Origin: Candidatus Pacearchaeota archaeon | GTDB taxonomy: Archaea; Nanobdellota; Nanobdellia; Pacearchaeales; GW2011-AR1 | Length of the DNA: 64,000 bases | Direction: 5' to 3' | NCBI GenBank assembly: GCA_038874355.1 | Contig: JAVZCO010000001.1 | Location: forward strand, 322,074 to 386,073 | Shown here: positions 30,124-61,561 of the stretch, one piece after another | How positions within the stretch are numbered: the first letter of the stretch is position 1 | Layout: every line of letters starts with the position of its first letter | The notes under the pieces: model-generated | Database searches by the model: none | The model's input: only the letters and a program-made list of their open reading frames with translations | What the model was told of the DNA's origin: nothing | Made by a program: the position numbers and the translations under genes

Positions 30124-30163
30124 TTTAATAATTTATTTTAAATTTACCCATTCATCATATCTT

Positions 30164-30898: not shown

Positions 30899-30909
30899 TT
30901 TAATTAAAT

Positions 30910-31791: not shown

Positions 31792-31792
31792 T

Positions 31793-33091: not shown

Positions 33092-33258
33092 GTTAAAAGT
33101 TTAGATATTTGTGAATTTATTTTAATGATCTCTTTTTTAGTTTTTTCATAATTTTCAATATCTTTCTTTGTATAATATTCTTCTAATTTTCTACTTATTT
33201 GTTCTAATGAGTTAATTAAAATATACAACAAAGAGATTCTTTCTTTACTTAACATTTT
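33088..33258 (-). CDS. small coiled-coil ORF (56 aa) translationally coupled to the platform gene
   Basis: My own translation: MLSKERISLLYILINSLEQISRKLEEYYTKKDIENYEKTKKEIIKINSQISKLLT. Its TGA stop overlaps the ATG of the 31793..33091 gene. Confidence 0.2.
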   Translation of the reverse strand, partial: KMLSKERISLLYILINSLEQISRKLEEYYTKKDIENYEKTKKEIIKINSQISKLLT

Positions 33259-33311
33259 TCACTCTTTTTTAAAATAAAAGGATGTTAATTTTATAAATCT
33301 TTTGAATATAT

Positions 33312-34832: not shown

Positions 34833-34833
34833 T

Positions 34834-35370
34834 TTAAGATAAAATAAAATCTATTTGATATTTACTTGTTGTCTCTTCATACTTTACGTTTCTTATATAA
34901 ATTTTATATGGAATCGGTGTTTGTGTTAGTTCTTTATTTTCTTCTTTTCCGTTATATGTTATATTTACATTTTTTTCTTTATATTTCAAATACAATTTTA
35001 TTTTATAATCATTTGCCTTTTGTTCTGTTAAAATGTTTATGCTACCTCTTTTAACCTCTTTTCCAGGCTGGGAATAAGAATATTTACTATCAATTTCAAA
35101 TTCTATTGTATCATTTTCTGAGTTTATTCTCATTTTTCCTTTTTTTATCATTATCTCACTTATTTCTCTAGTATTTCCCGGGCCATACACAAGTAATTCT
35201 TGAATTTTTGATTCTATTATATTTAAACTTTCTATACTGTTTTCTATAATAAATTTATCTTGTCTTTCTTGTATAGTTGGTTTTACAACAGCAAGAACAA
35301 TTCCAATTATAGAAAGCATTATCACAGTATAAATTACAGTTTCTATCCATACCTGTCCTTTTATTTTCAT
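34834..35370 (-). CDS. pilin-like protein with class-III signal peptide
   Basis: MKIKGQVWIETVIYTVIMLSIIGIVLAV: basic residues, Gly, then a hydrophobic helix. Confidence 0.5.
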   Translation of the reverse strand: MKIKGQVWIETVIYTVIMLSIIGIVLAVVKPTIQERQDKFIIENSIESLNIIESKIQELLVYGPGNTREISEIMIKKGKMRINSENDTIEFEIDSKYSYSQPGKEVKRGSINILTEQKANDYKIKLYLKYKEKNVNITYNGKEENKELTQTPIPYKIYIRNVKYEETTSKYQIDFILS

Positions 35371-35377
35371 TTTACAT

Positions 35378-35866
35378 TTAAGTGCACTTTTTAATGTTAT
35401 ATGATTGTGATGTTATATCACAAGTTTTTCCATTAATCATAACAGTTATAGTAGAATAACTAACATTTCCTAAAGAAAATATATAAGTTAATGCTTCCCC
35501 TCTTTCTGGTAAAACTATTGTTGAAGATCCATCATACATTTTAACACCATTTAAATTAGTTCCATTTTTTAATTCATATCCTTTAGAACTTGCACCTGAA
35601 GATAAAGATATGTATATTCCATCTATTTCTTTTTGGTCAGATCCTCTTTCAATTTGTATTAATGTAGATGTACTATTAGAACAAGTATATTCTGAATCTA
35701 AAATATTTATATAATCCATATACTCATAACAAGAAGATTTTCCTATATCTTTATTAATAATTTCTTTTACAAACTTTCCTAAGGTTAATGTTGCTATTAT
35801 AGTTATTACTACTAATAACAAAGTAGCAATTACAGGAGATATTGCTCTTTTATTTTTTTTTATCAT
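35378..35866 (-). CDS. archaeal type IV pilin (class-III signal peptide)
   Basis: MIKKNKRAISPVIATLLLVVITIIA: the KR-A-ISPVIATLLLV pilin/archaellin N-terminal motif. Confidence 0.7.
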   Translation of the reverse strand: MIKKNKRAISPVIATLLLVVITIIATLTLGKFVKEIINKDIGKSSCYEYMDYINILDSEYTCSNSTSTLIQIERGSDQKEIDGIYISLSSGASSKGYELKNGTNLNGVKMYDGSSTIVLPERGEALTYIFSLGNVSYSTITVMINGKTCDITSQSYNIKKCT

Positions 35867-35903
35867 TTTCCCTCTTTTTTATATTAAATTATTATTTTTA
35901 ATT
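35804..35903. repeat. about 100-nt direct repeat, copy A (pilin 5' coding plus upstream region)
   Basis: About 97% identical to 36296..36395 at a constant offset of 492 nt. Confidence 0.7.
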
Positions 35904-35908
35904 AATTT

Positions 35909-36358
35909 TTATATGGTTTCTGCTAAAAAAGTATTCTCTTTACATGTATATTGTGTCTTTTTTCCTTTTTCATTTTCACCTAAAATAACAGGAATTACTT
36001 CTATTGAATCTTTATTTTTTAATGAATCATCTTTTATACTTTCTCCAGCACCTATTAGAATGCTTTTATTTATTTCATAATTCTTTATTTTTCCTTTTTC
36101 TTTTAATCTTAATTGTAAAGAATAAATTGGATAATTTCCTATATTAGAAAAACTAATTTCTCCACTATCTTTATTATAATAAACTTCTAATCTTATTTCT
36201 CCACATACTTGTTGTGCTGGTTTTTCTTTTTTTTGTATAGATTCTTTTATAAAACTTTTTGCCCATATAAAAACTATTAATACAAGAATTATTACTATTA
36301 CTACTAATAACAAAGTAGCAATTACAGGAGATATTGCTCTTTTATCTTTTTTTATCAT
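35909..36358 (-). CDS. archaeal type IV pilin (class-III signal peptide), paralog of 35378..35866
   Basis: MIKKDKRAISPVIATLLLVVIVIIL. The N-terminus is identical to its neighbour and the C-terminal domain is divergent. Confidence 0.7.
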   Translation of the reverse strand: MIKKDKRAISPVIATLLLVVIVIILVLIVFIWAKSFIKESIQKKEKPAQQVCGEIRLEVYYNKDSGEISFSNIGNYPIYSLQLRLKEKGKIKNYEINKSILIGAGESIKDDSLKNKDSIEVIPVILGENEKGKKTQYTCKENTFLAETI

Positions 36359-36395
36359 TTTCCCTCTTTTTTATATTAAATTATTATTTTTAATT
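36296..36395. repeat. about 100-nt direct repeat, copy B
   Basis: See copy A. Covers the first 21 codons and 37 nt upstream of the pilin gene. Confidence 0.7.
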
Positions 36396-36413
36396 TAAAT
36401 ACTTTTCTAAATC

Positions 36414-36920
36414 TCATATACAATTTTTTATTTCTTGTTCTATTTTTTGATTCGAACATAGTAATTTATCATTCTTTATAGTATGAGTTGGAATTACATT
36501 GATTTTTGTTATTAAATTCAAATTAGAATAATCAAAAATAGCCAAAACTTCTTCATTATCAGACGCATTTAAATTATTTTGAAAATAATATTCAAAACTA
36601 CTAATATTTCTTATTTTTCCTTGAGGAAAACTATTTTTTAAATTTATAGACATAATTGGTAATTGTGTAGAATTTGATGCTTTTATTATTGCCCCACTTA
36701 TGTCATATAGCCCCATATTTTTTAAGGTTAAATTTAATATTTTATTAGAAGAATCACAAGAATAATCCTTTATTATTAATGATAATGTTTCTGGACATTC
36801 TTCTGTTTTTGTAGGAATTTGTCTTTTCATCCATGTATAAACCAAGACACTCAAAGATAAAACTATTGTTATAATTAAAACATAAGCTACTATTTCACTT
36901 ATTGCTTTTTTATTTTTCAT
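36414..36920 (-). CDS. pilin-like protein (class-III signal peptide)
   Basis: MKNKKAISEIVAYVLIITIVLSL. Confidence 0.55.
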   Translation of the reverse strand: MKNKKAISEIVAYVLIITIVLSLSVLVYTWMKRQIPTKTEECPETLSLIIKDYSCDSSNKILNLTLKNMGLYDISGAIIKASNSTQLPIMSINLKNSFPQGKIRNISSFEYYFQNNLNASDNEEVLAIFDYSNLNLITKINVIPTHTIKNDKLLCSNQKIEQEIKNCI

Positions 36921-36932
36921 TTTACTATTTTT

Positions 36933-37490
36933 TTATTTTGAAGATACTGTTTGATTTCCTGTTGTGATTACAAAATAAAAGTTTTGTCCTTCTTTTATGT
37001 TAAAAGATTTATAAAAATTTATTTCTGGAACATTTATTAAAATTTTACCTTCTTCATCTAAGGTTTGGGTTATATCATAAATTATTATACTTCTTATTTG
37101 TGTGTTTTGGGTAATACGATCCCCTTCTCTTCCTATTTCCATACTTATTTCTCCACCAGTAGTAGAATTTATTATAATCGCCTTTAAATTATTTTTATCT
37201 CCATATATAAAAAGCCATGTTGGGTAAATTCCTTCTGTTGTTGTTACGTATTTTTGCGAATATTCTGTATAATTCGTGATCCAAATTTCTATTAAAGAAT
37301 TCAAATCTTTTTTATTAACTATCCCATAGTCAATAACCTTTGCGGTTTCTAATTCTATTACATCTTTTATACTATAAATTGGATATTTTTCCTCTTTTGT
37401 CCTTATATAATTAAAACTTAAAGTTATTATTAAAATTACTCCTATTATTATTATTGCAGCCATCAAGTAAAATTGATTTTTTTTATTCAT
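36933..37490 (-). CDS. pilin-like / pilus-associated protein
   Basis: MNKKNQFYLMAAIIIIGVILIITL N-terminal anchor. First gene of the operon. Confidence 0.4.
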   Translation of the reverse strand: MNKKNQFYLMAAIIIIGVILIITLSFNYIRTKEEKYPIYSIKDVIELETAKVIDYGIVNKKDLNSLIEIWITNYTEYSQKYVTTTEGIYPTWLFIYGDKNNLKAIIINSTTGGEISMEIGREGDRITQNTQIRSIIIYDITQTLDEEGKILINVPEINFYKSFNIKEGQNFYFVITTGNQTVSSK

Positions 37491-39701: not shown

Positions 39702-40973
39702 TTATTTCAATTCGTCACTAGCCCATCTTCTTAAAGCTTCTCTTAATTCATAATGATTTTTAGAATAATTTGCTAAACTTATTTTCTTCATACACGCGTC
39801 TACAGCTTGTCTCATTGCTTTTGCTCCTGCAATACTACCATAAGGATGGCCATGAATTCCTCCACCAGCTTGTATTAAAATATTATCCCCCAAATGTTTG
39901 ATTAAAAACGGAACGTGTCCAGGATGCAAACCGCCAGAACAAACTGCTAACATTGGCTTTATTTTATACCAATTTTGTTGTAATCTTGTTTTTGTCTCTT
40001 TAACATAATTTTCTTCTATTTCTTCTTCTATCTCATGAACTTCTTTAATACTGGTTTCCATTTTTCCTATACCAGTTCCTATATGTAAAGAATCTAATCC
40101 TATTAATCTAGCAATATCAGCTAAAACCATCATACTTACACCATGTTTTTCATTTCTTGTTAAAGCAGCGTGCATTGCTCTATGTCCGTGAATAACTAAT
40201 TTTAAATTTCTATTTTCTTTTGATAAAGTTTGCAAGGCAGAAAAACCAACAGTTAACATATCAACCATGATGAATTTAGCATTTTGTTTCTTTACTAATT
40301 CTGCTCTTCTTATCATCTCTTCTGTTTCTGCTGTTACATTAATCAAATAAGCTTTTTTTTCTCCTGTTTCTTTTTCTGCTTTATCTTTCATTTCTAATGT
40401 TTTTAATAATCTTTTTTCAAATTTGTTAAAATCCTGACTTGAAAGATTTTCATCATCTTTAACAAAATCACATCCTCCTAACCATGATTCATAAGCAGAT
40501 TTTGCATGTTCTTCTGTTTTTAATCCTAATTTTGGCTTAACAATTGTTCCAACTAATGGTCTTTTTTTTATTCTTAATATTTTTCTTATACCCTTTAATC
40601 CATATAAAGGACCATAAAAACTTTTAATTATAGATTTAGGAAATTGAATATCTTCTAATCTCAAAGCTTTTACATCTTTCATACCAAAAATATTTCCTGC
40701 AACACTGCTTAATATATTAGCCATATTTCCTTTTTCAAATAATTCAGAAGGATATGCTATCTTAACATATTCTCCTTTTATAGAAAACACTTTTGCTCTC
40801 AAATCTTTAACATAGTTAAATTTTGGTATTTCTGTCCAAGTTCCAACAGAAGATTCTGCTGCAACTCTTTCTGCAGCTTCTTTAATTGTTAAATTATTGG
40901 CCGGTTCTATTCTAAATAAACAAACAATATCGTCCTTTGGTGTGTATTTTAGATTTAAATATTCATCATACAT
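39702..40973 (-). CDS. rbcL: ribulose-1,5-bisphosphate carboxylase large subunit, form III (archaeal type)
   Basis: Carbamylated-lysine region KPKLGL, GGCDFVKDDENL (compare GGLDFTKDDEN), HGHRAMH, C-terminal GGGIHGHP. 423 aa with no small subunit. Confidence 0.85.
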   Translation of the reverse strand: MYDEYLNLKYTPKDDIVCLFRIEPANNLTIKEAAERVAAESSVGTWTEIPKFNYVKDLRAKVFSIKGEYVKIAYPSELFEKGNMANILSSVAGNIFGMKDVKALRLEDIQFPKSIIKSFYGPLYGLKGIRKILRIKKRPLVGTIVKPKLGLKTEEHAKSAYESWLGGCDFVKDDENLSSQDFNKFEKRLLKTLEMKDKAEKETGEKKAYLINVTAETEEMIRRAELVKKQNAKFIMVDMLTVGFSALQTLSKENRNLKLVIHGHRAMHAALTRNEKHGVSMMVLADIARLIGLDSLHIGTGIGKMETSIKEVHEIEEEIEENYVKETKTRLQQNWYKIKPMLAVCSGGLHPGHVPFLIKHLGDNILIQAGGGIHGHPYGSIAGAKAMRQAVDACMKKISLANYSKNHYELREALRRWASDELK

Positions 40974-52729: not shown

Positions 52730-55700
52730 ATGAAAAAAGAGATATTATTGTTATTATTTTGTTTTATTTGTTCATATGCACTGTTACCAGAAAATATTAC
52801 AGCTACTTGTTTAATACCTCCTTCTAATCCTTCTTATGATTACAACAATGATAATATAATTGATATTTATGATGTTAATTCTTTACTTCAAGTATCTATT
52901 GAATTAAGTAATTGTCAATCAAATAAAATTTGTGACCTAAATAATGATGGAATAATAGATATATCTGATGTTAATCTTCTTCAAAATTGGATTTATTCTA
53001 ATAACTGTCCTTTACTTAATTGTTCAGATAATCAGACCATAATGAAAGTTTCTAATATAACAAATGCTTATGCAGAAATTTGGAATGAAACAGAAAATTA
53101 TCTTTATCCAATCTGTTACCAAAATATATTCGGAGTCAATTATCCTGAACAAAATTCTCATGAATGTATAAAAAATAATAAAGTTATTGGGCTATCTTTG
53201 ACAAAAAACGCTCTTGCAGAGATTCCCTCTCTAAATAATTACCCGGTTAACGTTTGTTATGGAGATTTAGAATGTAACTCTACAAATCAATCTTGTGATT
53301 CTCTTGGCACAAATTATAAAGAGATTATAAGATTATCTAAAGAGACAAATGCTCTTTTAGAGATACCAATTAATTTTAGTTCATTTATTTTAGAGATTAA
53401 AGGAACATCAAAAGAAAATATATCGCATGTTAAAAATTATGAAAAAACAATAATATTAACAGATAAAATAGAAAATAAAACCATGATTGTACAAACCGAT
53501 ACATATGTAAATATTATGGAACCTCCTTCTAATTATCTTTCTTATTTTCCTTACCGGCAAACTACAAAAACATTTCAAGCAAATAAAGGGGATAATGTTA
53601 GTATAAAAGTTTTATACAAACAACAATTATCAAGTAATATTATCATTACTTACGGTATATACAAAAATGATATAAATATATATAATGTTACACAAATTAG
53701 AACACCAAACAAAGTTGGATTAGCAGCAGTATATAGAGAAGATAAAAGAGAATATTCTGAGAAAATAAAAGAATCAAAAGAAATAAGAAAAGAATATGCA
53801 GAAAAAGAAATAAAAAAATTTGGAAAAATTCCAGATAGTGTAATTAGCGAATCTTTAATGGATAATTTTGTTGGTTATTCTTATAGTGGCAGTAAAGATG
53901 TTAATAATTTTGTTACAATCAGTTCTGCTAATATTTATATAGATAATAATACAAAAGCAATAAAATTATTTCAAAAAGCAAGTACAATTGCTATTTGTGG
54001 TATGGTTAGAATGTGTATATCTACACCGAATGGATTATGTAATTCAAGTTATCAAAGCAATTATATGTTTCTTCATCATCTTTATTATGTAAATTATAAT
54101 GAAACCGGCGATTATATAATTCCTAATAATTTTGGTTGTAAAGGATATTATTATAATAAAAGCAGAGGAGATTTATACCTGCCTTCTTTAGATAAGAGTA
54201 TGGTTAGAATAGGAGAGATGAGAATAGATAATCCTCCTATTGGTAATCAAACTATTATCGTTCAAGTTGCTGGAACAAGCGACGTTTATTTAAGAGGAGG
54301 AGAAATATATTTAGAAAAAAATTCTAATTTATCACAAGAATTTATCGTAAGTAGTAATAATCCTTTTGTAAATGTTTATTTTTCAGATACGAAAGAAAAT
54401 AAAACAACTAATATAGCATCAGATATTCTAGGAAAATTATTGTTATATAACACTTTTCCAATAAAAATTTGTTGTAAGTCATTAATAGCCGAAAATATAC
54501 CATATCATCAAACAGAAGAACCAAATCAAACAGAATTTGGTTGTAATGTTAGTGAAAATCATCCTTATGATTATAATGATGATAAAGTTATTGATGCTTC
54601 AGATACAGGATTTTTACTAAAGGTTGCTTTAGAGTTAAATAACTGTCCATCAAATAAAATTTGTGACTTAAATAATGATGGAACAATAGATATATCTGAT
54701 GTTACTCTTCTAGTGAGATATATAACTGTAGATAATTGTAATATAACTATACCACAAATCCCAAAAGGAATAGCATACTGGGCTGATATGAATCAAAATT
54801 ATATAAATAAAACTAATGTAAATGATAGTGTATTAATGATATACAATATAGGAGAAGAATATAACGGACAGGAAATTAATTTTGAAGTTCATGAAGTAGA
54901 TAAAGGTTTATTTGATGTAGATTGTTCTGGTGACTGGCCTAATGAAGCAAGATATGCAAAAGCAAATGTTATTAATGGAAAAGCAATTGCTTTATGGAAA
55001 GCAAGATATTGTTCTAATGGAGAAAGTGATGGAGTTTATTTTATAGCAAAATTAAATGATACTATAAAAAATGAATCAGATATACTAGAAATTCTTTCTT
55101 ATAATAATGAAAAACCATATATAAAAATATTATCTCCTGAAAATGAAGATAAATTCTTAGTTAATAATGATATATCTTTTAATCTTTTCTATAAAGATGT
55201 AGATGACGAATTAGAAATAACATGGAATTTCAATAATGAAAATACAACAACTTTAACTAATTGCTTAAATAATAATTGTAATATAATAAAACATAGTTTT
55301 AATACACCTGGAGTTAAGATAATAAAAGTAAGAGCAAAAGAAAAGAATAGAGAACAATATTCAGAAGATGCAATATCCTTATATATTTATAAAGAAGGAA
55401 TAAATGTATTTGCAGTTATATCTAAACCAGATCCTAAAAAAGAAATAATAATTCAAAATATAACAAAAGTAGAATTTGACGGTTCTTCTTCATATGTATC
55501 AAATTGTACTAAATGTGAAAATAATATCTGTATAAATTGTCCTTCTAATAAAGAATGCTATAATGTAACAAGCAATACAGAAATATTACAATGTTTTGAT
55601 TTGCCAAAACCACAGCCAATAAATAGTCCTTTGCAAGGATATAACTTATGGTTTAATTGGACTATTTTAAGAGAAGATAATAACTTATACGGTAATATAT

Positions 55701-55807
55701 ATGGAGATTGGAATGAAAATTATTATAGCAGTGTTAATTTTAATCATACTTTTCGTCAATCAGGAAAATATAAAGCAAAATTAAAAGTAGGTTATGAACC
55801 ATTATAA
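52730..55807 (+). CDS. large secreted protein with two dockerin modules (N-terminal and internal)
   Basis: Signal peptide. Two Ca-binding dockerin repeat pairs (DYNNDNIIDIYD + DLNNDGIIDISD, and DYNDDKVIDASD + DLNNDGTIDISD), each bracketed by Cys. Many N-glycosylation sequons. Confidence 0.65.
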   Translation: MKKEILLLLFCFICSYALLPENITATCLIPPSNPSYDYNNDNIIDIYDVNSLLQVSIELSNCQSNKICDLNNDGIIDISDVNLLQNWIYSNNCPLLNCSDNQTIMKVSNITNAYAEIWNETENYLYPICYQNIFGVNYPEQNSHECIKNNKVIGLSLTKNALAEIPSLNNYPVNVCYGDLECNSTNQSCDSLGTNYKEIIRLSKETNALLEIPINFSSFILEIKGTSKENISHVKNYEKTIILTDKIENKTMIVQTDTYVNIMEPPSNYLSYFPYRQTTKTFQANKGDNVSIKVLYKQQLSSNIIITYGIYKNDINIYNVTQIRTPNKVGLAAVYREDKREYSEKIKESKEIRKEYAEKEIKKFGKIPDSVISESLMDNFVGYSYSGSKDVNNFVTISSANIYIDNNTKAIKLFQKASTIAICGMVRMCISTPNGLCNSSYQSNYMFLHHLYYVNYNETGDYIIPNNFGCKGYYYNKSRGDLYLPSLDKSMVRIGEMRIDNPPIGNQTIIVQVAGTSDVYLRGGEIYLEKNSNLSQEFIVSSNNPFVNVYFSDTKENKTTNIASDILGKLLLYNTFPIKICCKSLIAENIPYHQTEEPNQTEFGCNVSENHPYDYNDDKVIDASDTGFLLKVALELNNCPSNKICDLNNDGTIDISDVTLLVRYITVDNCNITIPQIPKGIAYWADMNQNYINKTNVNDSVLMIYNIGEEYNGQEINFEVHEVDKGLFDVDCSGDWPNEARYAKANVINGKAIALWKARYCSNGESDGVYFIAKLNDTIKNESDILEILSYNNEKPYIKILSPENEDKFLVNNDISFNLFYKDVDDELEITWNFNNENTTTLTNCLNNNCNIIKHSFNTPGVKIIKVRAKEKNREQYSEDAISLYIYKEGINVFAVISKPDPKKEIIIQNITKVEFDGSSSYVSNCTKCENNICINCPSNKECYNVTSNTEILQCFDLPKPQPINSPLQGYNLWFNWTILREDNNLYGNIYGDWNENYYSSVNFNHTFRQSGKYKAKLKVGYEPL

Positions 55808-55829
55808 AGAAAAATAGAATTAGGATTTA

Positions 55830-56315
55830 ATGATTGGAATTTTTATTTTAGCTGCTATCTTTATATTTTTTATAGTTATTTTTATATTTATTGAATCTAG
55901 GAAAAAGATGATAACAATAAATTTAGAAAAGTTTCAATTCAAACCCGGAGAAGAAATAAAGGGTCAAATATTTTTAAATTTAAAAAAACCTGTAAAAGCA
56001 GAGGAACTAGTAGTTGGACTTGCTGGAAAGCAAAGAAGTAGGAAAGGAGATGATATTGATGGTTATAAAGTCTTTGAATTCTTCCAAAGATTAGACGGAG
56101 AAAAAATATATACTTCAACCCCAGAACCTTATAATTTCTCTATTATGATTCCTTCTAATATTATATCTCAAGTTAAAGATAATTTAGGGAGAACTATCCT
56201 AAATGTTATAGGAACTCTAACAGGATCTTTTCATTTAGTAAGATGGTATGTTGTTGTTAGATTAAAGACTTATGGAATTGATATAACAAAAGAAGTTCAA
56301 ATTAATATATATTAA
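55830..56315 (+). CDS. membrane-anchored arrestin/Spo0M-like domain protein
   Basis: N-terminal TM. FQFKPGEEIKGQIFLNLKKPVKAEELVVGLAG resembles the Spo0M/arrestin-N HYAPGEEVRGVVHVKGGKVEQDIDHITLAL block. Confidence 0.4.
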   Translation: MIGIFILAAIFIFFIVIFIFIESRKKMITINLEKFQFKPGEEIKGQIFLNLKKPVKAEELVVGLAGKQRSRKGDDIDGYKVFEFFQRLDGEKIYTSTPEPYNFSIMIPSNIISQVKDNLGRTILNVIGTLTGSFHLVRWYVVVRLKTYGIDITKEVQINIY

Positions 56316-56529
56316 TAAGCATAATAAAAGTACATAAAATTTCTACTATCCTAAATTTTAATAATTTATTGGCCATCACATTTTTTCAAATGAAATTAAT
56401 ATAGTAGTCATCAAAAAATAATTAATATGGTGAAAAAGGTTTATAAAAATTTTTGTAAAAGATATGAGAGTTTTAAAAAATAAACTTATTAAGATATATT
56501 TAAAAACTTTTTTTTCTTTTAAATTTTAT

Positions 56530-56601
56530 GGGGAGGTAGCTCAGTGGGAGAGCACACGGCTGAAGACCGTGGCGTCGGGAGTTCGATTCTCCCCCTTCCC
56601 A
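56530..56601 (+). tRNA. tRNA-Phe (anticodon GAA)
   Basis: Acceptor GGGGAGG/CCTTCCC, D-arm GCTC-AGTGGGA-GAGC, anticodon arm CACGG-CTGAAGA-CCGTG, T-arm GGGAG-TTCGATT-CTCCC, discriminator A. Confidence 0.85.
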
Positions 56602-56608
56602 TAATAAA

Positions 56609-57103
56609 ATGAAAAAAATATTAAATTTGTTGTTTTTAGGTTATTTTTCTTTAGCAAGCCTTCTTCCTTTAGATTTAAAGGGAAAAAATTTAAAAAGAAT
56701 AGTAATAGATAAATCCGATAGAAAATTATATGTTTATGAAAATGATAAAATAATAAAAACTTTTCTCGTTGGTATAGGAAAAGAAGAATATGAAACTCCT
56801 ACTGGAAAATTTAAAATAAAAGAAATAAGAAAAGATCCTTATTGGATTCCTCCGGAAAAAGATTGGGCAAAAAAAGCAAAAAAGTATGTAAATGATAAAG
56901 GAGTAATTCCTTATGATCATCCTTATAATCCTTTGAGGTATTATTTTATTAATTTAGGAAATGGAATAGGAATTCATGGTTATAGAAATGATATGGGAAT
57001 AGGAAAAAAAAGTTCTCATGGTTGTATCAGAGCAAAAAAAGATTGTTTAGAGTACATTGTAAATAATTTTTTTATTGGAGACGAAGTAATAATTCAAGAA
57101 TAG
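56609..57103 (+). CDS. secreted L,D-transpeptidase (YkuD-domain) protein
   Basis: Signal peptide. YkuD catalytic region GIHGYRNDMGIGKKSSHGCIRAKKD (His...Cys). Confidence 0.7.
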   Translation: MKKILNLLFLGYFSLASLLPLDLKGKNLKRIVIDKSDRKLYVYENDKIIKTFLVGIGKEEYETPTGKFKIKEIRKDPYWIPPEKDWAKKAKKYVNDKGVIPYDHPYNPLRYYFINLGNGIGIHGYRNDMGIGKKSSHGCIRAKKDCLEYIVNNFFIGDEVIIQE

Positions 57104-57249
57104 ATTTTAAAATAAATTTAAAATAGTGCGATTAGATTAAATTCTAAAAAATTATTGATATAAATTAACCGAAAAATAAAAGATTTTGCTATAATTTTTC
57201 CACTTTCTTCCTTTTGTGACTTTTCTATTATTTTTATTTTAAATCCAAT

Positions 57250-57816
57250 CTATTTTTGTAATGCTTTTCTTGTTACAGGTTGCTTTTTAATTTTGCTCAC
57301 TTTTGCTTCATGTTTTATCTCTTTATGTTTTTCTTTTGCTTCTTCTATCTTAGCTATTTCTTCTGCCTTTTCTTTTTCAATTTCTTCTTTTGCTTCTTCT
57401 TCTGCTTTTCTTAATTCTTCTTTTGCCTTTTCTTCTAATTCTTTTTTCTTCTCTTCTTTCTCTTTTCTTATTTTTTCTCCTTCTTCTAAAATTTTCTTTT
57501 CTTTTTCTATTCTATATTTCCAATATTCTGGTATTTCTGCTAGTTCAACTTTAACTATTCCAGAATCTAATTTTTTTGCTTTAATTTTTATTTTAGCAGG
57601 AGGTTTTTTCCTGCTTCTTTTCCAAATTTCTACGTTTAACCATTTATCTAATTTTACTTTTTTTATATCTCTATCTTCTACTCTCATATGTCTTGCAACA
57701 AATTTTTTTAATCCTTTTATAGCAGCATTGATTCTTTTGTAATATGCTTTTTTTATCCAATATTTCCTTAAATTAACAATATACTCTCTTTCAAGTATGA
57801 TATTTTCTTCTGTCAT
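57250..57816 (-). CDS. rpl31e: ribosomal protein L31e with K/E-rich C-terminal extension
   Basis: ILEREYIVNLRKYWIKK...LKKFVARHMRVEDRDIKKVKLDKWLNVEIWKRSRKKPPAKIKIKA matches L31e, followed by about 80 aa of charged low-complexity tail. Confidence 0.75.
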   Translation of the reverse strand: MTEENIILEREYIVNLRKYWIKKAYYKRINAAIKGLKKFVARHMRVEDRDIKKVKLDKWLNVEIWKRSRKKPPAKIKIKAKKLDSGIVKVELAEIPEYWKYRIEKEKKILEEGEKIRKEKEEKKKELEEKAKEELRKAEEEAKEEIEKEKAEEIAKIEEAKEKHKEIKHEAKVSKIKKQPVTRKALQK

Positions 57817-57825
57817 TTTATTTTT

Positions 57826-57999
57826 TTATATACTATTTTCCATTATTTTATTTAATAACCCCATACATTTTTCTATTCTTATAAGATATCTATAATCTGT
57901 TTCTTCTAAAAATATCTTGTCTCTTTTGTTATAATATATTTCTTTGCCTTCTATTTTTCCTAAATAAACATAATTATTTCTAATTTTTGATATTACCAT
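57826..57999 (-). CDS. small conserved protein (57 aa), paralog of 21895..22101, absent from the ORF track
   Basis: My own translation: MVISKIRNNYVYLGKIEGKEIYYNKRDKIFLEETDYRYLIRIEKCMGLLNKIMENSI. Lies between rpl31e and rpl39e. Confidence 0.35.
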   Translation of the reverse strand: MVISKIRNNYVYLGKIEGKEIYYNKRDKIFLEETDYRYLIRIEKCMGLLNKIMENSI

Positions 58000-58031
58000 T
58001 TTTTGATTTTTTCTTTCATTTTAATATAATT

Positions 58032-58235
58032 TTATCCTAAATGTTTTTTATGAATTCTTCTTGGTTTAATTTTTAATTTTGTTCTTGTCCAATGTCTTTT
58101 TAATCTTGTCATTTGACTTGGGTGTATTTTTTTTCCTACACCATATTTTCTTAAAACTGCCCAAATAGGAGCCCACTTAGTTCTCCTATTGTATACTGCT
58201 AATTTTATTTTTTTTGTTCTTGATTTTTTTACCAT
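58032..58235 (-). CDS. rpl39e: ribosomal protein L39e
   Basis: KKIKLAVYNRRTKWAPIWAVLRK...HPSQMTRLKRHWTRTKLKI matches the L39e pattern. Confidence 0.8.
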   Translation of the reverse strand: MVKKSRTKKIKLAVYNRRTKWAPIWAVLRKYGVGKKIHPSQMTRLKRHWTRTKLKIKPRRIHKKHLG

Positions 58236-58370
58236 CTTAAGCTTATTTGTTTTTTATTTATCTTCATATTTAATTTTCTACTTTCCGGCTGATTTTTTCG
58301 AAAGTTATTCGCTTTTTTATTTTCATTTGTTTTATCTTTTAGCTTTATTTTTTATTTTTTTTATTCTTAC

Positions 58371-58811
58371 CTATTTAATATTTTGATTATTATTTTTTAT
58401 TTTTTCTGCAACATCTTCTAAAAATTTTTTTCCTTCTTTTGTTAATTCTCTTCCCTTTCTTTTTCCTCGTGATTTTTGTAAAAAACCTGCTTTTTCTCCT
58501 TGTTGTAATATAGTTCTTATTATCTTACCAGAACCTTTTCTAAATTCAGCTGGCTTCATACCTCTATCTTTTCTTCCGCCGTATCTTGTCTTTAATCTAT
58601 TCACTCCTACAACTCCTTTAATATAAATTTGTCTTAATATAGATGCTGCTCTTTTATACCACCAATCTTTTTCTGCCGGAGGCCTTGCTCTCGCTACAGA
58701 TGTTTTAACAAATAAACTCCATTTAGGAACTTTAAATTCTTGAATTTTTTTTAATTCTTCTGCTAAAAACTTATTATAAACTGCAGGATCTATTTCATAT
58801 ATACTTGCCAT
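58371..58811 (-). CDS. rps19e: ribosomal protein S19e
   Basis: IYEIDPAVYNKFLAEELKK...WSLFVKTSVARARPPAEKDWWYKRAASILRQIY...YGGRKDRG matches S19e. Confidence 0.8.
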   Translation of the reverse strand: MASIYEIDPAVYNKFLAEELKKIQEFKVPKWSLFVKTSVARARPPAEKDWWYKRAASILRQIYIKGVVGVNRLKTRYGGRKDRGMKPAEFRKGSGKIIRTILQQGEKAGFLQKSRGKRKGRELTKEGKKFLEDVAEKIKNNNQNIK

Positions 58812-59169
58812 ATCAATTTTTATTATTTAATTATTTATTTATAAAAACTTTATCCTTTCATATCCTTATTTTCTATTTTGAGCTTGCCTTTCGGCAATAG
58901 AAAAGCCATAAACTGGCTTTTAACTCATAATTAAATCAAACAGAGAGTTTATAAATATTTTGTTTGATATTTTTAAAATATCGTTTTTGAAATAATAAGA
59001 ATTTAATTATAAAAATTGACAGGATGAATGATATTTTTAAAACCCTTGAATAATTATAAGAAGGAATCTAATTATACTCAATGCATAAAAATCTTTTTTA
59101 AGTTATTTTAAAAAATAATCCTAACACTTATTAAAATATTTTTATATTATCTTTTAAGATTTTTATTTT

Positions 59170-59418
59170 TTATCTTATTTTCTTTCTCCATCTTTTTATA
59201 AAAATAGTATAACCAATTACTTTATAACTATAATTTTTTCCTAATTCATTAATTATTTTTTCTGCAATAAAATTTATATTTTCTTTTGTATGGCCCGCTG
59301 ATTTTAATAAAACCACTTTAACATTTTCTCTTGTCTTAAAAGCATTTTTTAAAGTAAAAATTAAGTTATCTTTATATCCTGCTTTTCCTATATTAAAAGA
59401 AACTTGTCCCTTTGTCAT
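59170..59418 (-). CDS. CRM-domain (YhbY-family) RNA-binding protein
   Basis: IGKAGYKDNLIFTLKNAFKTRENVKVVLLKS...IAEKIINELGKNYSYKVIGYTIFIKRW parallels YhbY IGKNGLTENVIEEIDRALEDHELIKVKVL...IAEEL...VIGRTAVLYRP. Confidence 0.5.
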   Translation of the reverse strand: MTKGQVSFNIGKAGYKDNLIFTLKNAFKTRENVKVVLLKSAGHTKENINFIAEKIINELGKNYSYKVIGYTIFIKRWRKKIR

Positions 59419-59593
59419 TATTATAAGATAAAATATAAGATTATAAAGTTTTTGCTGAATATTTTTATAAAAAATAATATAAATAAAAAAAAGAAAATAT
59501 TTATAAATAGTACTTTCTTTTTTTAAAATTATAAATAATAATCTTTATTAAAAATAAGGGGTGATAATATAAATAAAACTAAAAACCCCGAAG

Positions 59594-61561
59594 ATGAAAA
59601 GAAACAGAGTAAAGAATTTAAAAATAATTTTCTTAGTTTTATTCTTAGTATTCTTTCTATTTCACTATTTTATTCTCATTGAAGCAAAGACAACAAGAAA
59701 TAAAATTAATTATCTTACATCAATAAACAATTTAATAAAAAATAAAAATTATTTTATTGATTATGAAAAATTACAATATAATTATGAACTAGCAGAAATA
59801 CAAAAAAAGATTAAAGAAAAAAATTTATCTTGGCAGGCTGGAGAAACAGAAGTTTCTAAATTACCTAAAGAACAAAGGAAAAAATTGTTAAGTGGAATCA
59901 TAGAAGTAAAAGACATAGAAAAATCAGAAGAAGAACAAATAAATAATTTTGATTTAAAATATTATGAAAATTCTTTACCTTCTTCTTTTGATTGGAGAAA
60001 TAAAGATGGTGTAAATTGGATGACTCCTGTTAAAAATCAGTTTTTATGTGGAAGCTGTTGGGCATTTGCTGATGTTGGAGTTATTGAAGCTGCCTTCAAT
60101 ATTTATCAAAACAATCCAGATCTTGATTTAGATTTATCTGAACAAGACGTAATTTCTTGTTCTGGATATGGAAGCTGTGGCGGAGGAACAGCAGGAGGTG
60201 GGCTTCTTTATGCAATAAATACAGGAATAGTTAATGAGACATGTTTTCCTTACACTGCAACAAATAATAATTGTTCAAATAAATGTTATAATGGAGAAAA
60301 ATATAAAATAAAGGGAAGATTTAATTACGGTTTCTATAATCACACAAATGAATATTGGAAATCTATATTAATGAAATATGGACCCGGAACTGTTCTTATG
60401 TATGCTCCTGATGATTTTTTATTCTATATTGGTGGAATTTATGAGCCTCTTAATGATGAAAAATCCGGATATGCGAATCATGCTGTAGTGTTAGTTGGAT
60501 GGAATGACACTGGCTTTAATGAAACAACAAATATGACAGAAGGATACTGGATAGTAAAAAATTCATGGGGGACTTATTGGGGAGAGAATGGATATGGAAA
60601 GATTAAATATGGAATTATAGAATCCTATAGGACTTTTTTAGTTGTTACTGGAATAATAAATGGAAGTATTACTTGTTCTAAAAATTCTGATTGTGGAATA
60701 GATAATTGTTATAATGGAACTTATAAAAAATTCTCTTGTATTAATCCAGACACAGAATATTCTTATTGTTCTTCTCAAGATATTATAACGGATAATGACC
60801 TAGACGGATATGATATTCAATGTGAATATGATTGTGATGATAACGATTCAAGTAAATGGCAAATCTTAAATGGATATCTAGATTACGATAAAGACAATTA
60901 TGGGGCAGGAGATATTATCAATGTTTGTTCTGGAAATAATTTACCATTAGGATATTCTTATATTTCTGGCGATTGTAATGACAATGATAGTTCAATATAT
61001 CCAAATGCTCAAGAATTATGCGATGAAAAAGACAATGATTGTAATTTCTTAATTGATGAAATTTTCTTAAATAAAGGAAAGAGTTGTGATGTTGGAGTTG
61101 GTTTTTGTAAAAGAACAGGAATTTTTATTTGCTCTTCAAATGGTTTAGAAACAATTTGTAACGTTATTCCAGGAGACCCAAAAAGAGAATTATGTTTTAA
61201 TGAAATAGACGATGATTGTGATGGAGAAGTAGATGAAGAAGATTGTGGAATTAAAGGAGATATAAATGATGATAGTATTGTAGATATTTCTGATGTTATC
61301 TTAACATTAAGAATGGCAATTGAATTAAATTTAACAATTAGAGGGAATAACTACGAGTATCCATATCCCGATTGGCTGATTAATAAAGCCGATATAAACG
61401 ATGATAAAGTTATTGATATTTATGATACAATATTAATTTTAAGAATATCTCTCGGTCTAAACTCTGAAGAAAAATTGACAGAATCTCAAATTCCTTCTTT
61501 TATAAAAACAGAAATAGAGAAAAAAGGTATGTGTATTGATGATATAAAAAAGATAAAATAA
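59594..61561 (+). CDS. secreted papain-family (C1A) cysteine protease with Cys-rich MopE-like repeats and C-terminal dockerin
   Basis: Signal peptide. Catalytic Gln/Cys NQFLCGSCWAF, His NHAVVLVGW, Asn NSWG. Three CxxxDCDDND-type repeats. C-terminal dockerin DINDDSIVDISD + DINDDKVIDIYD. Confidence 0.75.
   Translation: MKRNRVKNLKIIFLVLFLVFFLFHYFILIEAKTTRNKINYLTSINNLIKNKNYFIDYEKLQYNYELAEIQKKIKEKNLSWQAGETEVSKLPKEQRKKLLSGIIEVKDIEKSEEEQINNFDLKYYENSLPSSFDWRNKDGVNWMTPVKNQFLCGSCWAFADVGVIEAAFNIYQNNPDLDLDLSEQDVISCSGYGSCGGGTAGGGLLYAINTGIVNETCFPYTATNNNCSNKCYNGEKYKIKGRFNYGFYNHTNEYWKSILMKYGPGTVLMYAPDDFLFYIGGIYEPLNDEKSGYANHAVVLVGWNDTGFNETTNMTEGYWIVKNSWGTYWGENGYGKIKYGIIESYRTFLVVTGIINGSITCSKNSDCGIDNCYNGTYKKFSCINPDTEYSYCSSQDIITDNDLDGYDIQCEYDCDDNDSSKWQILNGYLDYDKDNYGAGDIINVCSGNNLPLGYSYISGDCNDNDSSIYPNAQELCDEKDNDCNFLIDEIFLNKGKSCDVGVGFCKRTGIFICSSNGLETICNVIPGDPKRELCFNEIDDDCDGEVDEEDCGIKGDINDDSIVDISDVILTLRMAIELNLTIRGNNYEYPYPDWLINKADINDDKVIDIYDTILILRISLGLNSEEKLTESQIPSFIKTEIEKKGMCIDDIKKIK

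What the first reader, a model, noticed from the sequence alone, without database searches (positions are those of the whole stretch)
52730..61561. Dockerin-tagged secreted proteins: possible cohesin-dockerin (cellulosome-like) surface assembly in a reduced archaeon
Two secreted proteins carry canonical dockerin calcium-binding repeat pairs (D-x-N-x-D-x-x-I-D-x-x-D, twice, about 20 aa apart). They are the 1025-aa protein at 52730..55807 and the C1 cysteine protease at 59594..61561. In established systems dockerins bind cohesins on scaffoldins. A dockerin-tagged protease and a giant dockerin protein in a putative episymbiont-type genome suggest a modular, calcium-dependent surface or host-attachment assembly, not polysaccharide degradation. 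No cohesin could be recognised by eye. The partial giant ORF at 61639..>64000 and the surface protein at 25943..27625 are candidate partners.
Basis: partly seen in the sequence, partly recalled or inferred. Interest (0 to 1): 0.7.

Follow-up and report, generated by a model that had tools for sequence, protein, structure and literature searches.

The report
Dockerin-tagged secreted proteins in a Pacearchaeote
Two secreted proteins of a tiny-genome archaeon (Candidatus Pacearchaeota), a cysteine protease and a large modular surface protein, do carry calcium-binding "dockerin" docking tags, but no matching "cohesin" socket lies within 64 kb, and such non-cellulosomal dockerins are already known in archaea.

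Summary
The window comes from a Candidatus Pacearchaeota MAG (575,629-bp NCBI contig). The 1025-aa secreted protein (52730..55807) has two dockerin modules, not one. The active C1A protease (59594..61561) has one at its C-terminus. All six Ca-loops carry D,N,D,D,D at positions 1,3,5,9,12, and the motif occurs 7 times against 0.05 expected. Only the internal module passes Pfam Dockerin_1 alone (39.1 bits, cut-off 22.9). The other two score 15.8 and 15.5 bits but are supported by hhalign (98.4% and 93.3%). For the protease module, an AlphaFold model (pLDDT 85) has solved dockerins as its top 33 PDB matches.

The cellulosome-like interpretation is not shown. No cohesin was found in the window by Pfam, NCBIfam, PDB sequence search, a custom cohesin HMM or hhalign, although Bathyarchaeota positive controls scored. 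The proposed partners are a PACE-CTERM putative S-layer protein and a conserved 1138-aa β-propeller surface glycoprotein. Neither looks cohesin-like, and the gene adjacency is not conserved.

A third dockerin protein (NosD/β-helix, P0139) appears to lie elsewhere on the same contig. NCBI already labels Pacearchaeota and Nanoarchaeota relatives as dockerin proteins.

Verdict: real, divergent non-cellulosomal dockerins; receptor unknown; new member of a known kind.

The parts
52730..55807 (+). 1025-aa secreted modular protein (NCBI locus tag QW117_02300). Layout: signal peptide, dockerin, conserved Cys-rich domain, orphan insert, dockerin, conserved PKD-containing C-terminal module. It has 32 N-x-S/T sequons and 32 Cys.
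   Evidence: ORF. A 100% identical NCBI Pacearchaeota protein was found. Pfam Dockerin_1 scores 28.0 bits, above the 22.9 cut-off. Architecture; sequon and Cys counts.
52808..53008 (+). N-terminal dockerin module (aa 27-93), directly after the signal peptide. Ca-loops at aa 37-48 (DYNNDNIIDIYD) and aa 69-80 (DLNNDGIIDISD). Four Cys at positions 27, 62, 68 and 93.
   Evidence: Pfam scores 15.8 bits over profile positions 2-54 of 57, below the cut-off. hhalign gives 98.4%, E 1e-14. PDB hits are dockerins 2y3n_B and 5lxv_B. It is 58% identical to the internal module. Loop residues.
53015..53359 (+). Conserved Cys-rich domain (aa 96-210) with repeated '...TNA[HLY]-x-E/x...YP-x-x-CY' units. It is shared with hundreds of secreted proteins and has no Pfam model.
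   Evidence: BLASTP to P0002-P0004 gives 38-45% identity. Many representative hits cover query residues 86-219. Pfam finds nothing.
53360..54538 (+). Orphan stretch (aa 211-603) with no detectable homologue or domain, apart from the 'KICCK' end of the Cys-rich domain near aa 574-599. Not cohesin-like.
   Evidence: One search shows no homology. Pfam on sub-segments at E<=10 finds nothing. hhalign against a cohesin profile gives 0.1%.
54542..54739 (+). Internal dockerin module (aa 605-670). Ca-loops at aa 614-625 (DYNDDKVIDASD) and aa 646-657 (DLNNDGTIDISD). Four Cys at positions 605, 639, 645 and 670, with the same spacing as in the N-terminal module.
   Evidence: Pfam Dockerin_1 scores 39.1 bits, E 8.9e-10, over profile positions 2-56 of 57. 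PDB phmmer hits 4fl4_A at E 6.8e-7, plus CelD, CelS and Xyn10B dockerins. Loop and Cys positions.
54767..55795 (+). Conserved C-terminal module of about 345 aa (aa 680-1022) that includes a PKD-like domain. It is the main homology handle to more than 500 proteins.
   Evidence: BLASTP to P0002 gives E 1e-26. The exhaustive search found 566 representatives at E<=1e-10, mostly over residues 675-1025. Sub-threshold PKD hits. PKD_4 occurs in 36 of 44 relatives.
59594..61561 (+). 655-aa secreted C1A (papain-family) cysteine protease. Layout: signal/anchor, pro-region, catalytic domain, MopE-like Cys-rich repeats, C-terminal dockerin.
   Evidence: ORF. NCBI names it 'C1 family peptidase [Ca. Pacearchaeota]'. 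Pfam results.
59975..60616 (+). Peptidase_C1 catalytic domain (aa 128-341) with CGSCW (Cys), NHAV (His) and NSWG (Asn) intact.
   Evidence: Pfam scores 167.2 bits. The best PDB match is cathepsin C 1jqp_A at E 8e-46, and the alignment shows the conserved catalytic motifs.
60791..61243 (+). Cys-rich MopE-like 'putative metal-binding' repeats (aa about 400-550) that act as a spacer between the protease and the dockerin.
   Evidence: Pfam Cu-binding_MopE scores 38.4 bits over 2 stretches. Sequence shown.
61244..61468 (+). C-terminal dockerin module of the protease (aa 551-625). Ca-loops at aa 556-567 (DINDDSIVDISD) and aa 600-611 (DINDDKVIDIYD). It has an unusually long 32-aa inter-loop linker and lacks the four-Cys pattern.
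   Evidence: Pfam scores 15.5 bits, E 0.02, as the only family hit. The PDB best hit is dockerin 2y3n_B spanning both repeats. hhalign gives 93.3%, E 2.7e-7. The AF2 model has pLDDT 85.4 and helices at 15-32, 43-49 and 59-69. The Foldseek PDB top 33 are all dockerins, TM 0.6-0.8 normalised to the target.

Best explanation
These are genuine but divergent type-I-like dockerin modules (paired Ca2+-binding F-hand loops) attached to secreted cargo proteins of a Candidatus Pacearchaeota archaeon.

One cargo is a catalytically intact C1A cysteine protease with a C-terminal module. The other is a 1025-aa glycoprotein-like modular protein with two modules. Its conserved domains belong to a large family of extracellular PKD/lectin-type binding proteins.

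Shown: the identity and fold of the modules, the secreted nature and domain make-up of the cargo, and the absence of any cohesin in the 64-kb window.

Inferred: the modules most likely act as Ca2+-dependent protein-protein docking tags. They would hold the protease and the binding protein on the archaeon's own envelope, through a receptor encoded outside this window. That receptor could be a single-cohesin anchor protein, as in other archaea, or a non-cohesin surface component. By analogy with non-cellulosomal dockerins of Archaeoglobus and ANME archaea, this would be simple surface display of a few hydrolytic or adhesive proteins, not a multi-enzyme cellulosome.
For: Module identity:
- Pfam Dockerin_1 scores 39.1 bits on the internal module and 28.0 on the whole protein.
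- hhalign gives 98.4% and 93.3% for the other two modules.
- Solved dockerins are the best PDB sequence hits.
- The AF2 model of the protease module has pLDDT 85.4 and its top 33 Foldseek hits are dockerins, ahead of EF-hands.
- All six loops have D,N,D,D,D at positions 1,3,5,9,12, each followed by an amphipathic helix.
- The motif occurs 7 times against 0.05 expected.

Cargo:
- Peptidase_C1 scores 167 bits with an intact catalytic triad.
- Relatives of the 1025-aa protein carry PKD, Laminin_G_3, CBM, F5/8-C and VWA modules.

Recurrence:
- The closest full-length protease relative, P0009, also ends in a dockerin. Euryarchaeal/ANME-like C1 peptidases P0017, P0018, P0020 and P0029 have PF00404, and P0023 has dockerin plus cohesin.
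- A NosD/β-helix protein on a contig of identical length carries the same Cys-flanked dockerin.
- Pacearchaeota P0212 and Nanoarchaeota P0216 are already named dockerin proteins by NCBI.

Precedent:
- Archaeal cohesin-dockerin pairs bind specifically, and archaea generally lack multi-cohesin scaffoldins (PMC9012536 section 32, citing Bayer 1999, Haimovitz 2008 and Peer 2009).
Against: - No cohesin was found in the window by five methods.
- None was found in about 70 kb of related DPANN loci, L001-L007.
- No Cohesin appears among the 25 listed Pfam families in 44 relatives of the 1025-aa protein.
- Binding was not tested.
- Two of the three modules fall below Pfam's gathering score.
- The AF2 model of the protease module was guided by an alignment that contained dockerins, and its Foldseek E-values are modest (0.018 or higher) because the domain is small.
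- Some archaeal genomes have many dockerins and no annotated cohesin. In Table 2 of PMC5244752 the seventh column reads 17 dockerin and 0 cohesin; by the order in the legend that column is Methanosaeta concilii, which is my reading. A cohesin partner therefore cannot be assumed.
Confidence: 0.55

Rival explanations
1. Orphan dockerins. The genome encodes no cohesin. The modules would then act as Ca2+-dependent stabilising or clasp elements, or bind something other than a cohesin, such as a glycan, the S-layer, pili, or a surface molecule of a host or neighbouring cell.
For: - No cohesin in the window, in DPANN loci L001-L007, or among the listed domains of 44 relatives.
- Table 2 of PMC5244752 shows an archaeal genome column with 17 dockerin and 0 cohesin domains.
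- DPANN-type modules carry four conserved Cys, suggesting intramolecular clasps.
- Two modules in one protein, one of them directly after the signal peptide, is unusual for cargo tagging.
- A dockerin-domain envelope protein is essential in an epibiotic Saccharibacterium and was proposed to target host glycans (PMC10633639).
Against: - Only about 11% of the contig was examined.
- Where archaeal dockerins have been tested they bind cohesins (PMC9012536, citing Haimovitz 2008).
- The cohesin-contacting helices and the two-fold internal symmetry are retained.
- Divergent DPANN cohesins might escape Pfam, just as DPANN dockerins do.
Confidence: 0.28
2. One reading: a cellulosome-like, scaffoldin-based multi-protein surface or host-attachment assembly, with the neighbouring giant ORF (61638..) or the surface protein at 25943..27625 as the cohesin-bearing partner.
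For: - The contig appears to hold at least three dockerin-bearing secreted proteins carrying four modules.
- The protease gene sits 76 bp upstream of a conserved TM-anchored surface glycoprotein gene.
- The window is rich in envelope genes: S-layer, type IV pilus locus.
Against: - Neither candidate has any cohesin signal. Pfam and NCBIfam find none; hhalign gives 0.1% and 0.9%.
- The P0125 family profile hits no solved cohesin.
- The adjacency is not conserved in a related organism, where the protease and the giant-ORF orthologue lie on different contigs with different neighbours.
- No multi-cohesin ORF is present.
- A true archaeal cohesin cluster (L010) looks quite different and is readily detected.
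Confidence: 0.08
3. Not dockerins at all: generic EF-hand-like or thrombospondin-type Ca2+ loops, or a compositional artefact of an Asp/Asn/Ile-rich proteome at 23% GC.
For: - Two of the three modules are below the Pfam gathering score.
- Weak EF-hand hits co-occur.
- The proteome is N/D/I-rich.
Against: - Composition-preserving shuffles give 0.05 loops against 7 observed.
- EF-hand models score lower than Dockerin_1 for two of the three modules and all stay below their cut-offs; for the N-terminal module EF-hand_6 (18.5 bits) edges Dockerin_1 (15.8).
- Dockerins outrank every EF-hand protein in both the PDB sequence and fold searches.
- Position 12 is Asp, as in dockerins, and not the Glu typical of EF-hands (the EF-hand rule is from my own knowledge).
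- The loops are paired with dockerin spacing, and the full profile is covered.
Confidence: 0.03

Closest known systems
Non-cellulosomal dockerin (and cohesin) modules of archaea: Archaeoglobus fulgidus and ANME-1/-2 (Bayer 1999; Peer et al. 2009; Chadwick et al. 2022, PMC9012536; Timmers et al. 2017, PMC5244752)
   Same: - Type-I-like dockerins on secreted non-cellulolytic proteins of archaea.
- One or two modules per protein.
- Cargo includes peptidases and PKD-type adhesion modules.
- No large scaffoldin.
- C1 peptidases with PF00404 occur in Euryarchaeota/ANME-like relatives (P0017, P0018, P0020, P0029).
   Different: - The host is a DPANN archaeon with a roughly 0.6-Mb contig.
- No cohesin was seen, whereas ANME and A. 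fulgidus have them.
- The modules are more divergent: Pfam reports no Dockerin_1 at E<=0.01 for the modules of P0139 and L007.
- They carry a conserved four-Cys pattern and are often placed directly after the signal peptide.
Clostridial type I dockerins (for example the Acetivibrio thermocellus Cel/Xyn dockerins in 1ohz, 2ccl, 4fl4, 4dh2)
   Same: - Two 12-residue Ca loops with D/N at positions 1,3,5,9,12, each followed by a helix.
- About 32 aa between loop starts in the 1025-aa protein's modules.
- Three-helix fold; these are the top sequence and fold matches.
   Different: - The cargo is not a glycoside hydrolase.
- Positions 10-11 are I-Y, I-S or A-S, not the Ser-Thr pair typical of A. thermocellus (the S-T rule is from my own knowledge).
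- The protease module has a 12-aa longer linker.
- No scaffoldin.
Dockerin-domain envelope proteins of ultrasmall symbiotic bacteria: Saccharibacteria SEML1_0315, which is essential (PMC10633639), and an Omnitrophota giant ORF with nine non-cellulosomal dockerins proposed as an adhesin (PMC10066038)
   Same: Dockerin modules on envelope proteins of reduced-genome, host-associated or putatively host-associated cells, where adhesion rather than cellulose degradation is suspected.
   Different: - Those organisms are bacteria, not archaea.
- No function has been shown in either case.
- Here the cargo includes an active protease.
Bathyarchaeota cohesin-dockerin gene cluster
   Same: An archaeal secreted dockerin-like ORF with a similar loop sequence.
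   Different: L010 has four cohesin ORFs within 10 kb upstream of the dockerin ORF. Three pass Pfam Cohesin at 27-43 bits and a fourth scores 97% by hhalign. The Pacearchaeota window has none.

Membership tests
Dockerin type I (Pfam PF00404) | Profile HMM score at or above the gathering score (22.9 bits) | tested here: met
   The 1025-aa protein scores 28.0 bits. Its internal module alone (aa about 613-665) scores 39.1 bits, E 8.9e-10.
Dockerin type I (Pfam PF00404) | Profile HMM score at or above the gathering score, for the N-terminal module of the 1025-aa protein and for the protease C-terminal module | tested here: not met
   They score 15.8 bits (E 0.016) and 15.5 bits (E 0.02) when scanned alone. 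The protease module is not reported in the whole-protein scan. Other evidence compensates: hhalign 98.4% and 93.3%, dockerin best hits in the PDB, and 58% identity of the N-terminal module to the passing module.
Dockerin type I (Pfam PF00404) | Two tandem 12-residue Ca2+ loops with D/N at positions 1,3,5,9 and D at position 12, each followed by an α-helix (the F-hand pair) | tested here: met
   All six loops read D,N,D,D,D at these positions. Loop starts are 32 aa apart in both modules of the 1025-aa protein and 44 aa apart in the protease. Helices follow both loops in the AF2 model of the protease module.
Dockerin type I (Pfam PF00404) | Three-helix dockerin fold | tested here: met
   Tested on the protease module only. 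AF2 gives pLDDT 85.4 and pTM 0.76. The Foldseek PDB top 33 hits are all dockerins, with TM to target 0.6-0.8 and probability up to 1.00. Caveat: the guiding alignment contained dockerins. The other two modules were not modelled.
Dockerin type I (Pfam PF00404) | Ca2+-dependent binding to a cognate cohesin | not testable with these tools
   Neither an experiment nor a multimer prediction was available.
Cohesin-dockerin system / cellulosome | A cohesin (PF00963) domain encoded by the same organism | tested here: inconclusive
   None was found in the 64-kb window: Pfam on 24 secreted/TM/large ORFs and sub-segments, NCBIfam, a custom HMM on all six-frame ORFs with best E 7.8, and hhalign at 0.1-0.9%. 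Positive controls worked. About 510 kb of the contig could not be scanned.
Cohesin-dockerin system / cellulosome | A scaffoldin with multiple cohesins, and dockerin-bearing glycoside hydrolases | tested here: not met
   The window has no multi-cohesin ORF. The dockerin cargo is a C1 protease and a PKD/Cys-rich modular protein. The third dockerin protein, apparently on the same contig, is a NosD/β-helix protein. No GH domain was seen.
Papain-like cysteine peptidase (MEROPS C1A; Pfam PF00112) | HMM above threshold and a conserved catalytic Cys-His-Asn | tested here: met
   Peptidase_C1 scores 167.2 bits against a 20.7 cut-off. The alignment to cathepsin C 1jqp_A (E 8e-46) shows CGSCW, NHAV and NSWG conserved.
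EF-hand (PF00036, PF13405, PF13499) | HMM above threshold and EF-hand proteins as the nearest structures | tested here: not met
   All EF-hand models score at most 18.5 bits, against cut-offs of 25-30. EF-hand proteins rank below 33 dockerins in the fold search.
PACE-CTERM putative S-layer protein (NCBIfam NF033506), for the candidate partner at 25943..27625 | HMM above the curated cut-off (110 bits) | tested here: met
   It scores 353.1 bits, E 3.3e-105, over aa 24-559. Pfam also finds CARDB and NPCBM_assoc. There is no cohesin.

The most novel reading that the evidence does not exclude
DPANN archaea use a distinct, Cys-clasped dockerin subtype as a general envelope-display or host-attachment tag, and its receptor is not a canonical self-encoded cohesin. 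The receptor could be a cohesin-like or unrelated surface protein of the host cell, or the symbiont's own S-layer or β-propeller glycoprotein. Under this reading, a protease, a β-helix protein and lectin-like binders would be positioned at the symbiont-host interface by Ca2+-dependent docking.
Probability: 0.12. Interest if true: 0.75.

Novelty: new member of a known kind. Interest (0 to 1): 0.3.

Why it matters
How DPANN archaea hold on to and feed from their hosts is poorly understood. A small set of dockerin-tagged secreted proteins gives concrete, testable candidates for envelope-displayed effectors. This set is a protease, a β-helix protein and a lectin/PKD-type binder, in a genome with a contig of about 0.6 Mb.

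In the literature I could search, no paper connects dockerins with DPANN archaea. The domain is nevertheless already annotated by NCBI in Pacearchaeota and Nanoarchaeota MAGs, and non-cellulosomal archaeal dockerins have been described since 1999-2009. The finding therefore extends a known theme and does not open a new one.

A practical by-product: Pfam PF00404 under-calls DPANN dockerins, so domain censuses probably underestimate them. A DPANN-specific profile that includes the four-Cys pattern would help.

Tried and rejected
- Recovering the source contig to extend the window failed. The look-up of encoding contigs returned only 2-4 kb Logan fragments. A whole-genome cohesin scan was therefore impossible.
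- The arrestin-N-like TM protein just downstream of the 1025-aa gene (55830..56315) was considered as a membrane-anchored β-sandwich receptor. I set it aside because Pfam finds no cohesin, and the positive-inside rule (ESRKK right after the TM helix) suggests its domain faces the cytoplasm (inference).
- P0125 as a cohesin carrier was rejected. So was the S-layer protein.
- A conserved operon of protease plus giant ORF was rejected from relatives' contexts.
- Chance or compositional origin of the motif was rejected by shuffles.
- An EF-hand reading was rejected.
- Peer et al. 2009 (PMC3035643) could not be read. Statements about it come from citing papers.
- A search for 'PACE-CTERM' in the literature found nothing.

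Full report
SOURCE AND SETTING

The window has about 23% GC. The two proteins in the finding are 100% identical to NCBI proteins of a 'MAG: Candidatus Pacearchaeota archaeon' on a 575,629-bp contig. The 1025-aa protein carries locus tag QW117_02300, the protease is named 'C1 family peptidase', and the partial ORF is QW117_02350.

The window is rich in envelope genes:
- a PACE-CTERM putative S-layer protein at 25943..27625 (NCBIfam NF033506, 353 bits)
- an archaeal type IV pilus locus, with a T2SSE ATPase, two T2SSF proteins and Pilin_N proteins
- a secreted YkuD L,D-transpeptidase
- RuBisCO and ordinary housekeeping genes

Yes. Both ORFs are at the stated coordinates. A strict 12-residue Ca-loop pattern, searched in all six frames, occurs only in these two proteins. 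It occurs 7 times in 18,270 aa of ORFs. Residue shuffles of the same ORF set gave a mean of 0.052 and never more than 1. All six true loops have D,N,D,D,D at positions 1,3,5,9,12, followed by an amphipathic helix.

- one directly after the signal peptide (aa 27-93)
- one internal (aa 605-670)

They are 58% identical at the protein level and 71% at the DNA level, and they share the same four-Cys spacing. The protease has one module (aa 551-625) with a longer linker: loop starts are 44 aa apart, against 32 in the other two. The seventh regex hit lies in a MopE-like Cys-rich repeat and is not a dockerin loop. The partial ORF begins at 61638, one base earlier than stated.

Pfam Dockerin_1 has a gathering score of 22.9 bits.
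- It passes for the 1025-aa protein (28.0 bits).
- It passes for that protein's internal module alone (39.1 bits, profile positions 2-56 of 57).
- The N-terminal module scores 15.8 bits.
- The protease module scores 15.5 bits and is not reported at all in the whole-protein scan.

I therefore tested it by independent routes:
(i) hhalign against a six-sequence dockerin profile that excluded it gave 93.3% probability, E 2.7e-7, across both repeats. The N-terminal module gave 98.4%, E 1e-14.
(ii) Its best PDB sequence hit is the dockerin 2y3n_B, again spanning both repeats.
(iii) An AlphaFold2 model of aa 551-640 is confident (pLDDT 85.4, pTM 0.76), with a loop-helix-short helix-loop-helix layout. 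Its top 33 Foldseek matches among 350,542 PDB chains are all dockerins, with TM normalised to the target of 0.6-0.8. EF-hand proteins appear only below them.
(iv) The closest full-length relative, P0009 (59% identity in the catalytic part), also ends in a two-loop dockerin. Several euryarchaeal C1 peptidases carry precomputed PF00404.

Caveat: the AF2 alignment contained dockerins, and the Foldseek E-values (0.018 or higher) are modest for so small a domain. Taken together, I accept all three modules as dockerins.

WHAT THE CARGO PROTEINS ARE

The protease has these parts:
- a signal/anchor segment
- a pro-region
- a Peptidase_C1 domain (167 bits), closest to cathepsin C/L, with CGSCW, NHAV and NSWG intact
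- MopE-like Cys-rich repeats
- the dockerin

The 1025-aa protein at first looked like an orphan, with only 3 distant hits in the word-indexed search. An exhaustive HMMER search found 1,060 relatives at E<=1e-3 and 86 at E<=1e-30. They match through two conserved pieces: a Cys-rich domain (aa 96-210) and a roughly 345-aa PKD-containing C-terminal module (aa 680-1022). The dockerins and a roughly 390-aa orphan stretch (aa 211-603) are add-ons.

In 44 relatives, PKD_4 occurs in 36, Dockerin_1 in 8 and Laminin_G_3 in 8. There are scattered CBM60, CBM96, CBM_4_9, F5/8-C, VWA, Glug and sialidase-N modules. That is the signature of modular extracellular binding or adhesion proteins, quite possibly glycan-directed. 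Only 16 of 148 top representatives have a strict Ca loop, so the dockerin is a sporadically shuffled accessory in this family.

A THIRD DOCKERIN PROTEIN IN THE SAME GENOME

P0139 is 1484 aa, and NCBI (MEM3405937.1) names it 'NosD domain-containing protein [Candidatus Pacearchaeota archaeon]'. Its recorded contig length is exactly 575,629 bp. I infer from this that it lies on the same contig, outside the window. It is 57% identical to the 1025-aa protein across aa 598-946. It carries the same module, 'EFGCNV.ENHPYDYNDDK...NCP..KICDL', after a NosD/right-handed β-helix region. Pfam does not report this dockerin at E<=0.01.

NCBI already names P0212 (Pacearchaeota) and P0216 (Nanoarchaeota) as dockerin type I proteins. 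Both place dockerins immediately after the signal peptide. A Nanoarchaeia locus, L007, encodes a 209-aa TM-anchored ORF with a double dockerin-like region. DPANN-type dockerins are therefore recurrent, divergent and under-called by Pfam. They often have a Cys about 10 residues before loop 1 and a C-x(4-6)-C pair ending immediately before loop 2.

IS THERE A COHESIN PARTNER?

Not in this window.
- Pfam found no Cohesin in the two dockerin proteins, the partial ORF, the S-layer protein, ten further secreted/TM ORFs, ten pilus-locus and other ORFs, or sub-segments scanned at E<=10.
- NCBIfam found nothing relevant.
- PDB sequence searches of the 1025-aa protein returned dockerins as the only matches with E below 0.5. 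A 13-sequence profile of the giant ORF family returned nothing.
- A cohesin HMM built from a confirmed archaeal cohesin (P0023) and clostridial cohesin fragments was run with filters off on all 2,852 six-frame ORFs of at least 50 aa in the window and in loci L001-L024. Its best window hit was E 7.8, which is noise. It recovered P0023 at 117 bits and several ORFs of a Bathyarchaeota locus, L010.
- Pfam confirmed three L010 ORFs as Cohesin at 27.4-43.2 bits.
- hhalign with a cohesin profile gave 97.0% (E 9.7e-11) for a fourth L010 ORF that was held out of the profile. It gave 0.1%, 0.1% and 0.9% for the 1025-aa protein, P0125 and the S-layer protein.

So the tests have power on archaeal cohesins and are negative here.

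The giant ORF is 1138 aa in full (P0125). It has a signal peptide, dense N-x-S/T sequons, and a C-terminal TM helix with a basic tail. The database hits run from 36% to 67% identity at about 1116-1162 aa, and three of the proteins (counting P0125) are labelled Pacearchaeota. None has any Pfam domain.

In a related organism, the orthologue P0128 has entirely different neighbours. The dockerin-protease relative P0009, from the same sample, lies on another contig among housekeeping genes. The adjacency seen here is therefore not a conserved operon. The 25943 protein belongs to the PACE-CTERM putative S-layer family.

HOW IT MOST LIKELY WORKS

Shown:
- three bona fide dockerin modules with complete Ca-ligand sets
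- secreted cargo: an intact C1A protease and a PKD/Cys-rich modular binding protein
- probably a third cargo protein on the same contig (β-helix)
- no local cohesin

Inferred: the modules fold on binding Ca2+ and act as docking tags that retain these proteins on the cell envelope, through a receptor encoded elsewhere. The precedent is archaeal non-cellulosomal cohesin-dockerin pairs, which bind specifically but are not organised on multi-cohesin scaffoldins (PMC9012536 section 32; PMC5244752 section 3.5).

The main rival is that these are orphan dockerins with a non-cohesin ligand or a purely structural role. Three things keep it alive:
- the complete lack of cohesin signal in everything I could scan
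- a published domain table in which one archaeal genome column has 17 dockerin and 0 cohesin domains (PMC5244752 Table 2; by the legend's order this is Methanosaeta concilii, which is my reading)
- the conserved Cys pattern, which suggests intramolecular clasps

A scaffoldin-based, cellulosome-like assembly is the least supported reading.

COMPARISON WITH WHAT IS KNOWN, AND NOVELTY

Dockerins on non-cellulolytic secreted proteins of archaea, including peptidases and PKD proteins, are an established if functionally unexplained theme (Bayer 1999 and Peer 2009, as cited in PMC9012536 and PMC5244752).

Dockerin-bearing envelope proteins have also been noted in ultrasmall symbiotic bacteria. One is an essential Saccharibacteria protein (PMC10633639). 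Another is an Omnitrophota giant ORF with nine dockerins, proposed as an adhesin (PMC10066038).

I found no paper in the held library that links dockerins to DPANN archaea. NCBI's annotation pipeline, however, already labels such proteins in Pacearchaeota and Nanoarchaeota.

I therefore class this as a new member of a known kind, with a mildly distinctive module subtype: four Cys, frequent N-terminal placement, and poor Pfam sensitivity.

VERDICT

Interest is modest at 0.3. It would rise substantially if the receptor turned out to be non-canonical or host-encoded (probability about 0.12).

Noticed in passing
window 56609..57103 (+): A secreted YkuD-type L,D-transpeptidase (Pfam 87.3 bits, signal peptide) in an archaeon that should have no peptidoglycan. 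It could act on a bacterial partner's or prey's wall, or on another substrate.
   Followed up: partly
window 55830..56315 (+): A 161-aa protein with an N-terminal TM helix and an Arrestin_N-like β-sandwich (27.9 bits), 23 nt downstream of the 1025-aa dockerin gene. The positive-inside rule suggests the domain is cytoplasmic, so it is unlikely to be a dockerin receptor.
   Followed up: partly
window 25943..27625 (+): Matches NCBIfam NF033506 'PACE-CTERM-PROT, putative S-layer protein' at 353 bits, with CARDB and NPCBM_assoc modules and a C-terminal TM segment. No literature on 'PACE-CTERM' was found in the held library.
   Followed up: yes
[not shown]
   Followed up: yes
window 29722..37490 (-): An archaeal type IV pilus locus: T2SSE ATPase (33312..34832), two T2SSF membrane proteins (30910..33091), and several class-III-signal-peptide pilin-like ORFs (Pilin_N at 35378..36358).
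   Followed up: partly
P0139 (same 575,629-bp contig length, outside the window): A 1484-aa NosD/right-handed β-helix protein with the same Cys-flanked dockerin and the same PKD-containing C-terminal module as the 1025-aa protein. It is a third dockerin-tagged secreted protein, apparently in this genome. Pfam does not report its dockerin at E<=0.01.
   Followed up: partly
window 52808..53008 and 54542..54739; also P0139, P0144, P0283, and the L007 8420..9049 ORF; P0009 shares only the linker and C-terminal Cys: DPANN-type dockerins share conserved cysteines: about 10 aa before loop 1, a C-x(4-6)-C pair ending just before loop 2, and a C-terminal 'NC' or 'GC'. This suggests disulfide clasps. 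Pfam PF00404 under-calls these modules.
   Followed up: partly
L010 158..10180 (Bathyarchaeota MAG CAVYJU010000016.1): Four cohesin-bearing ORFs lie within 10 kb upstream of a dockerin-like ORF. Three pass Pfam at 27-43 bits, and one was detected by hhalign at 97%. This is a compact archaeal cohesin-dockerin gene cluster, used here as a positive control.
   Followed up: partly
L005 552..8347: An integrase/AEP-primase/resolvase island (probably an integrated mobile element) lies immediately upstream of the P0125 orthologue in a related Pacearchaeote.
   Followed up: no
window 57250..57816 (-) and 57293..57742 (+): Ribosomal protein L31e with a long Lys/Glu-rich C-terminal tail. The 149-aa antisense ORF overlapping it is almost certainly a spurious, low-complexity mirror ORF.
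   Followed up: partly
window 39702..40973 (-): A RuBisCO large subunit (310 bits). It also lies near the protease relative in L002. This fits the nucleotide-salvage RuBisCO common in DPANN archaea; that role is stated from my own knowledge.
   Followed up: no
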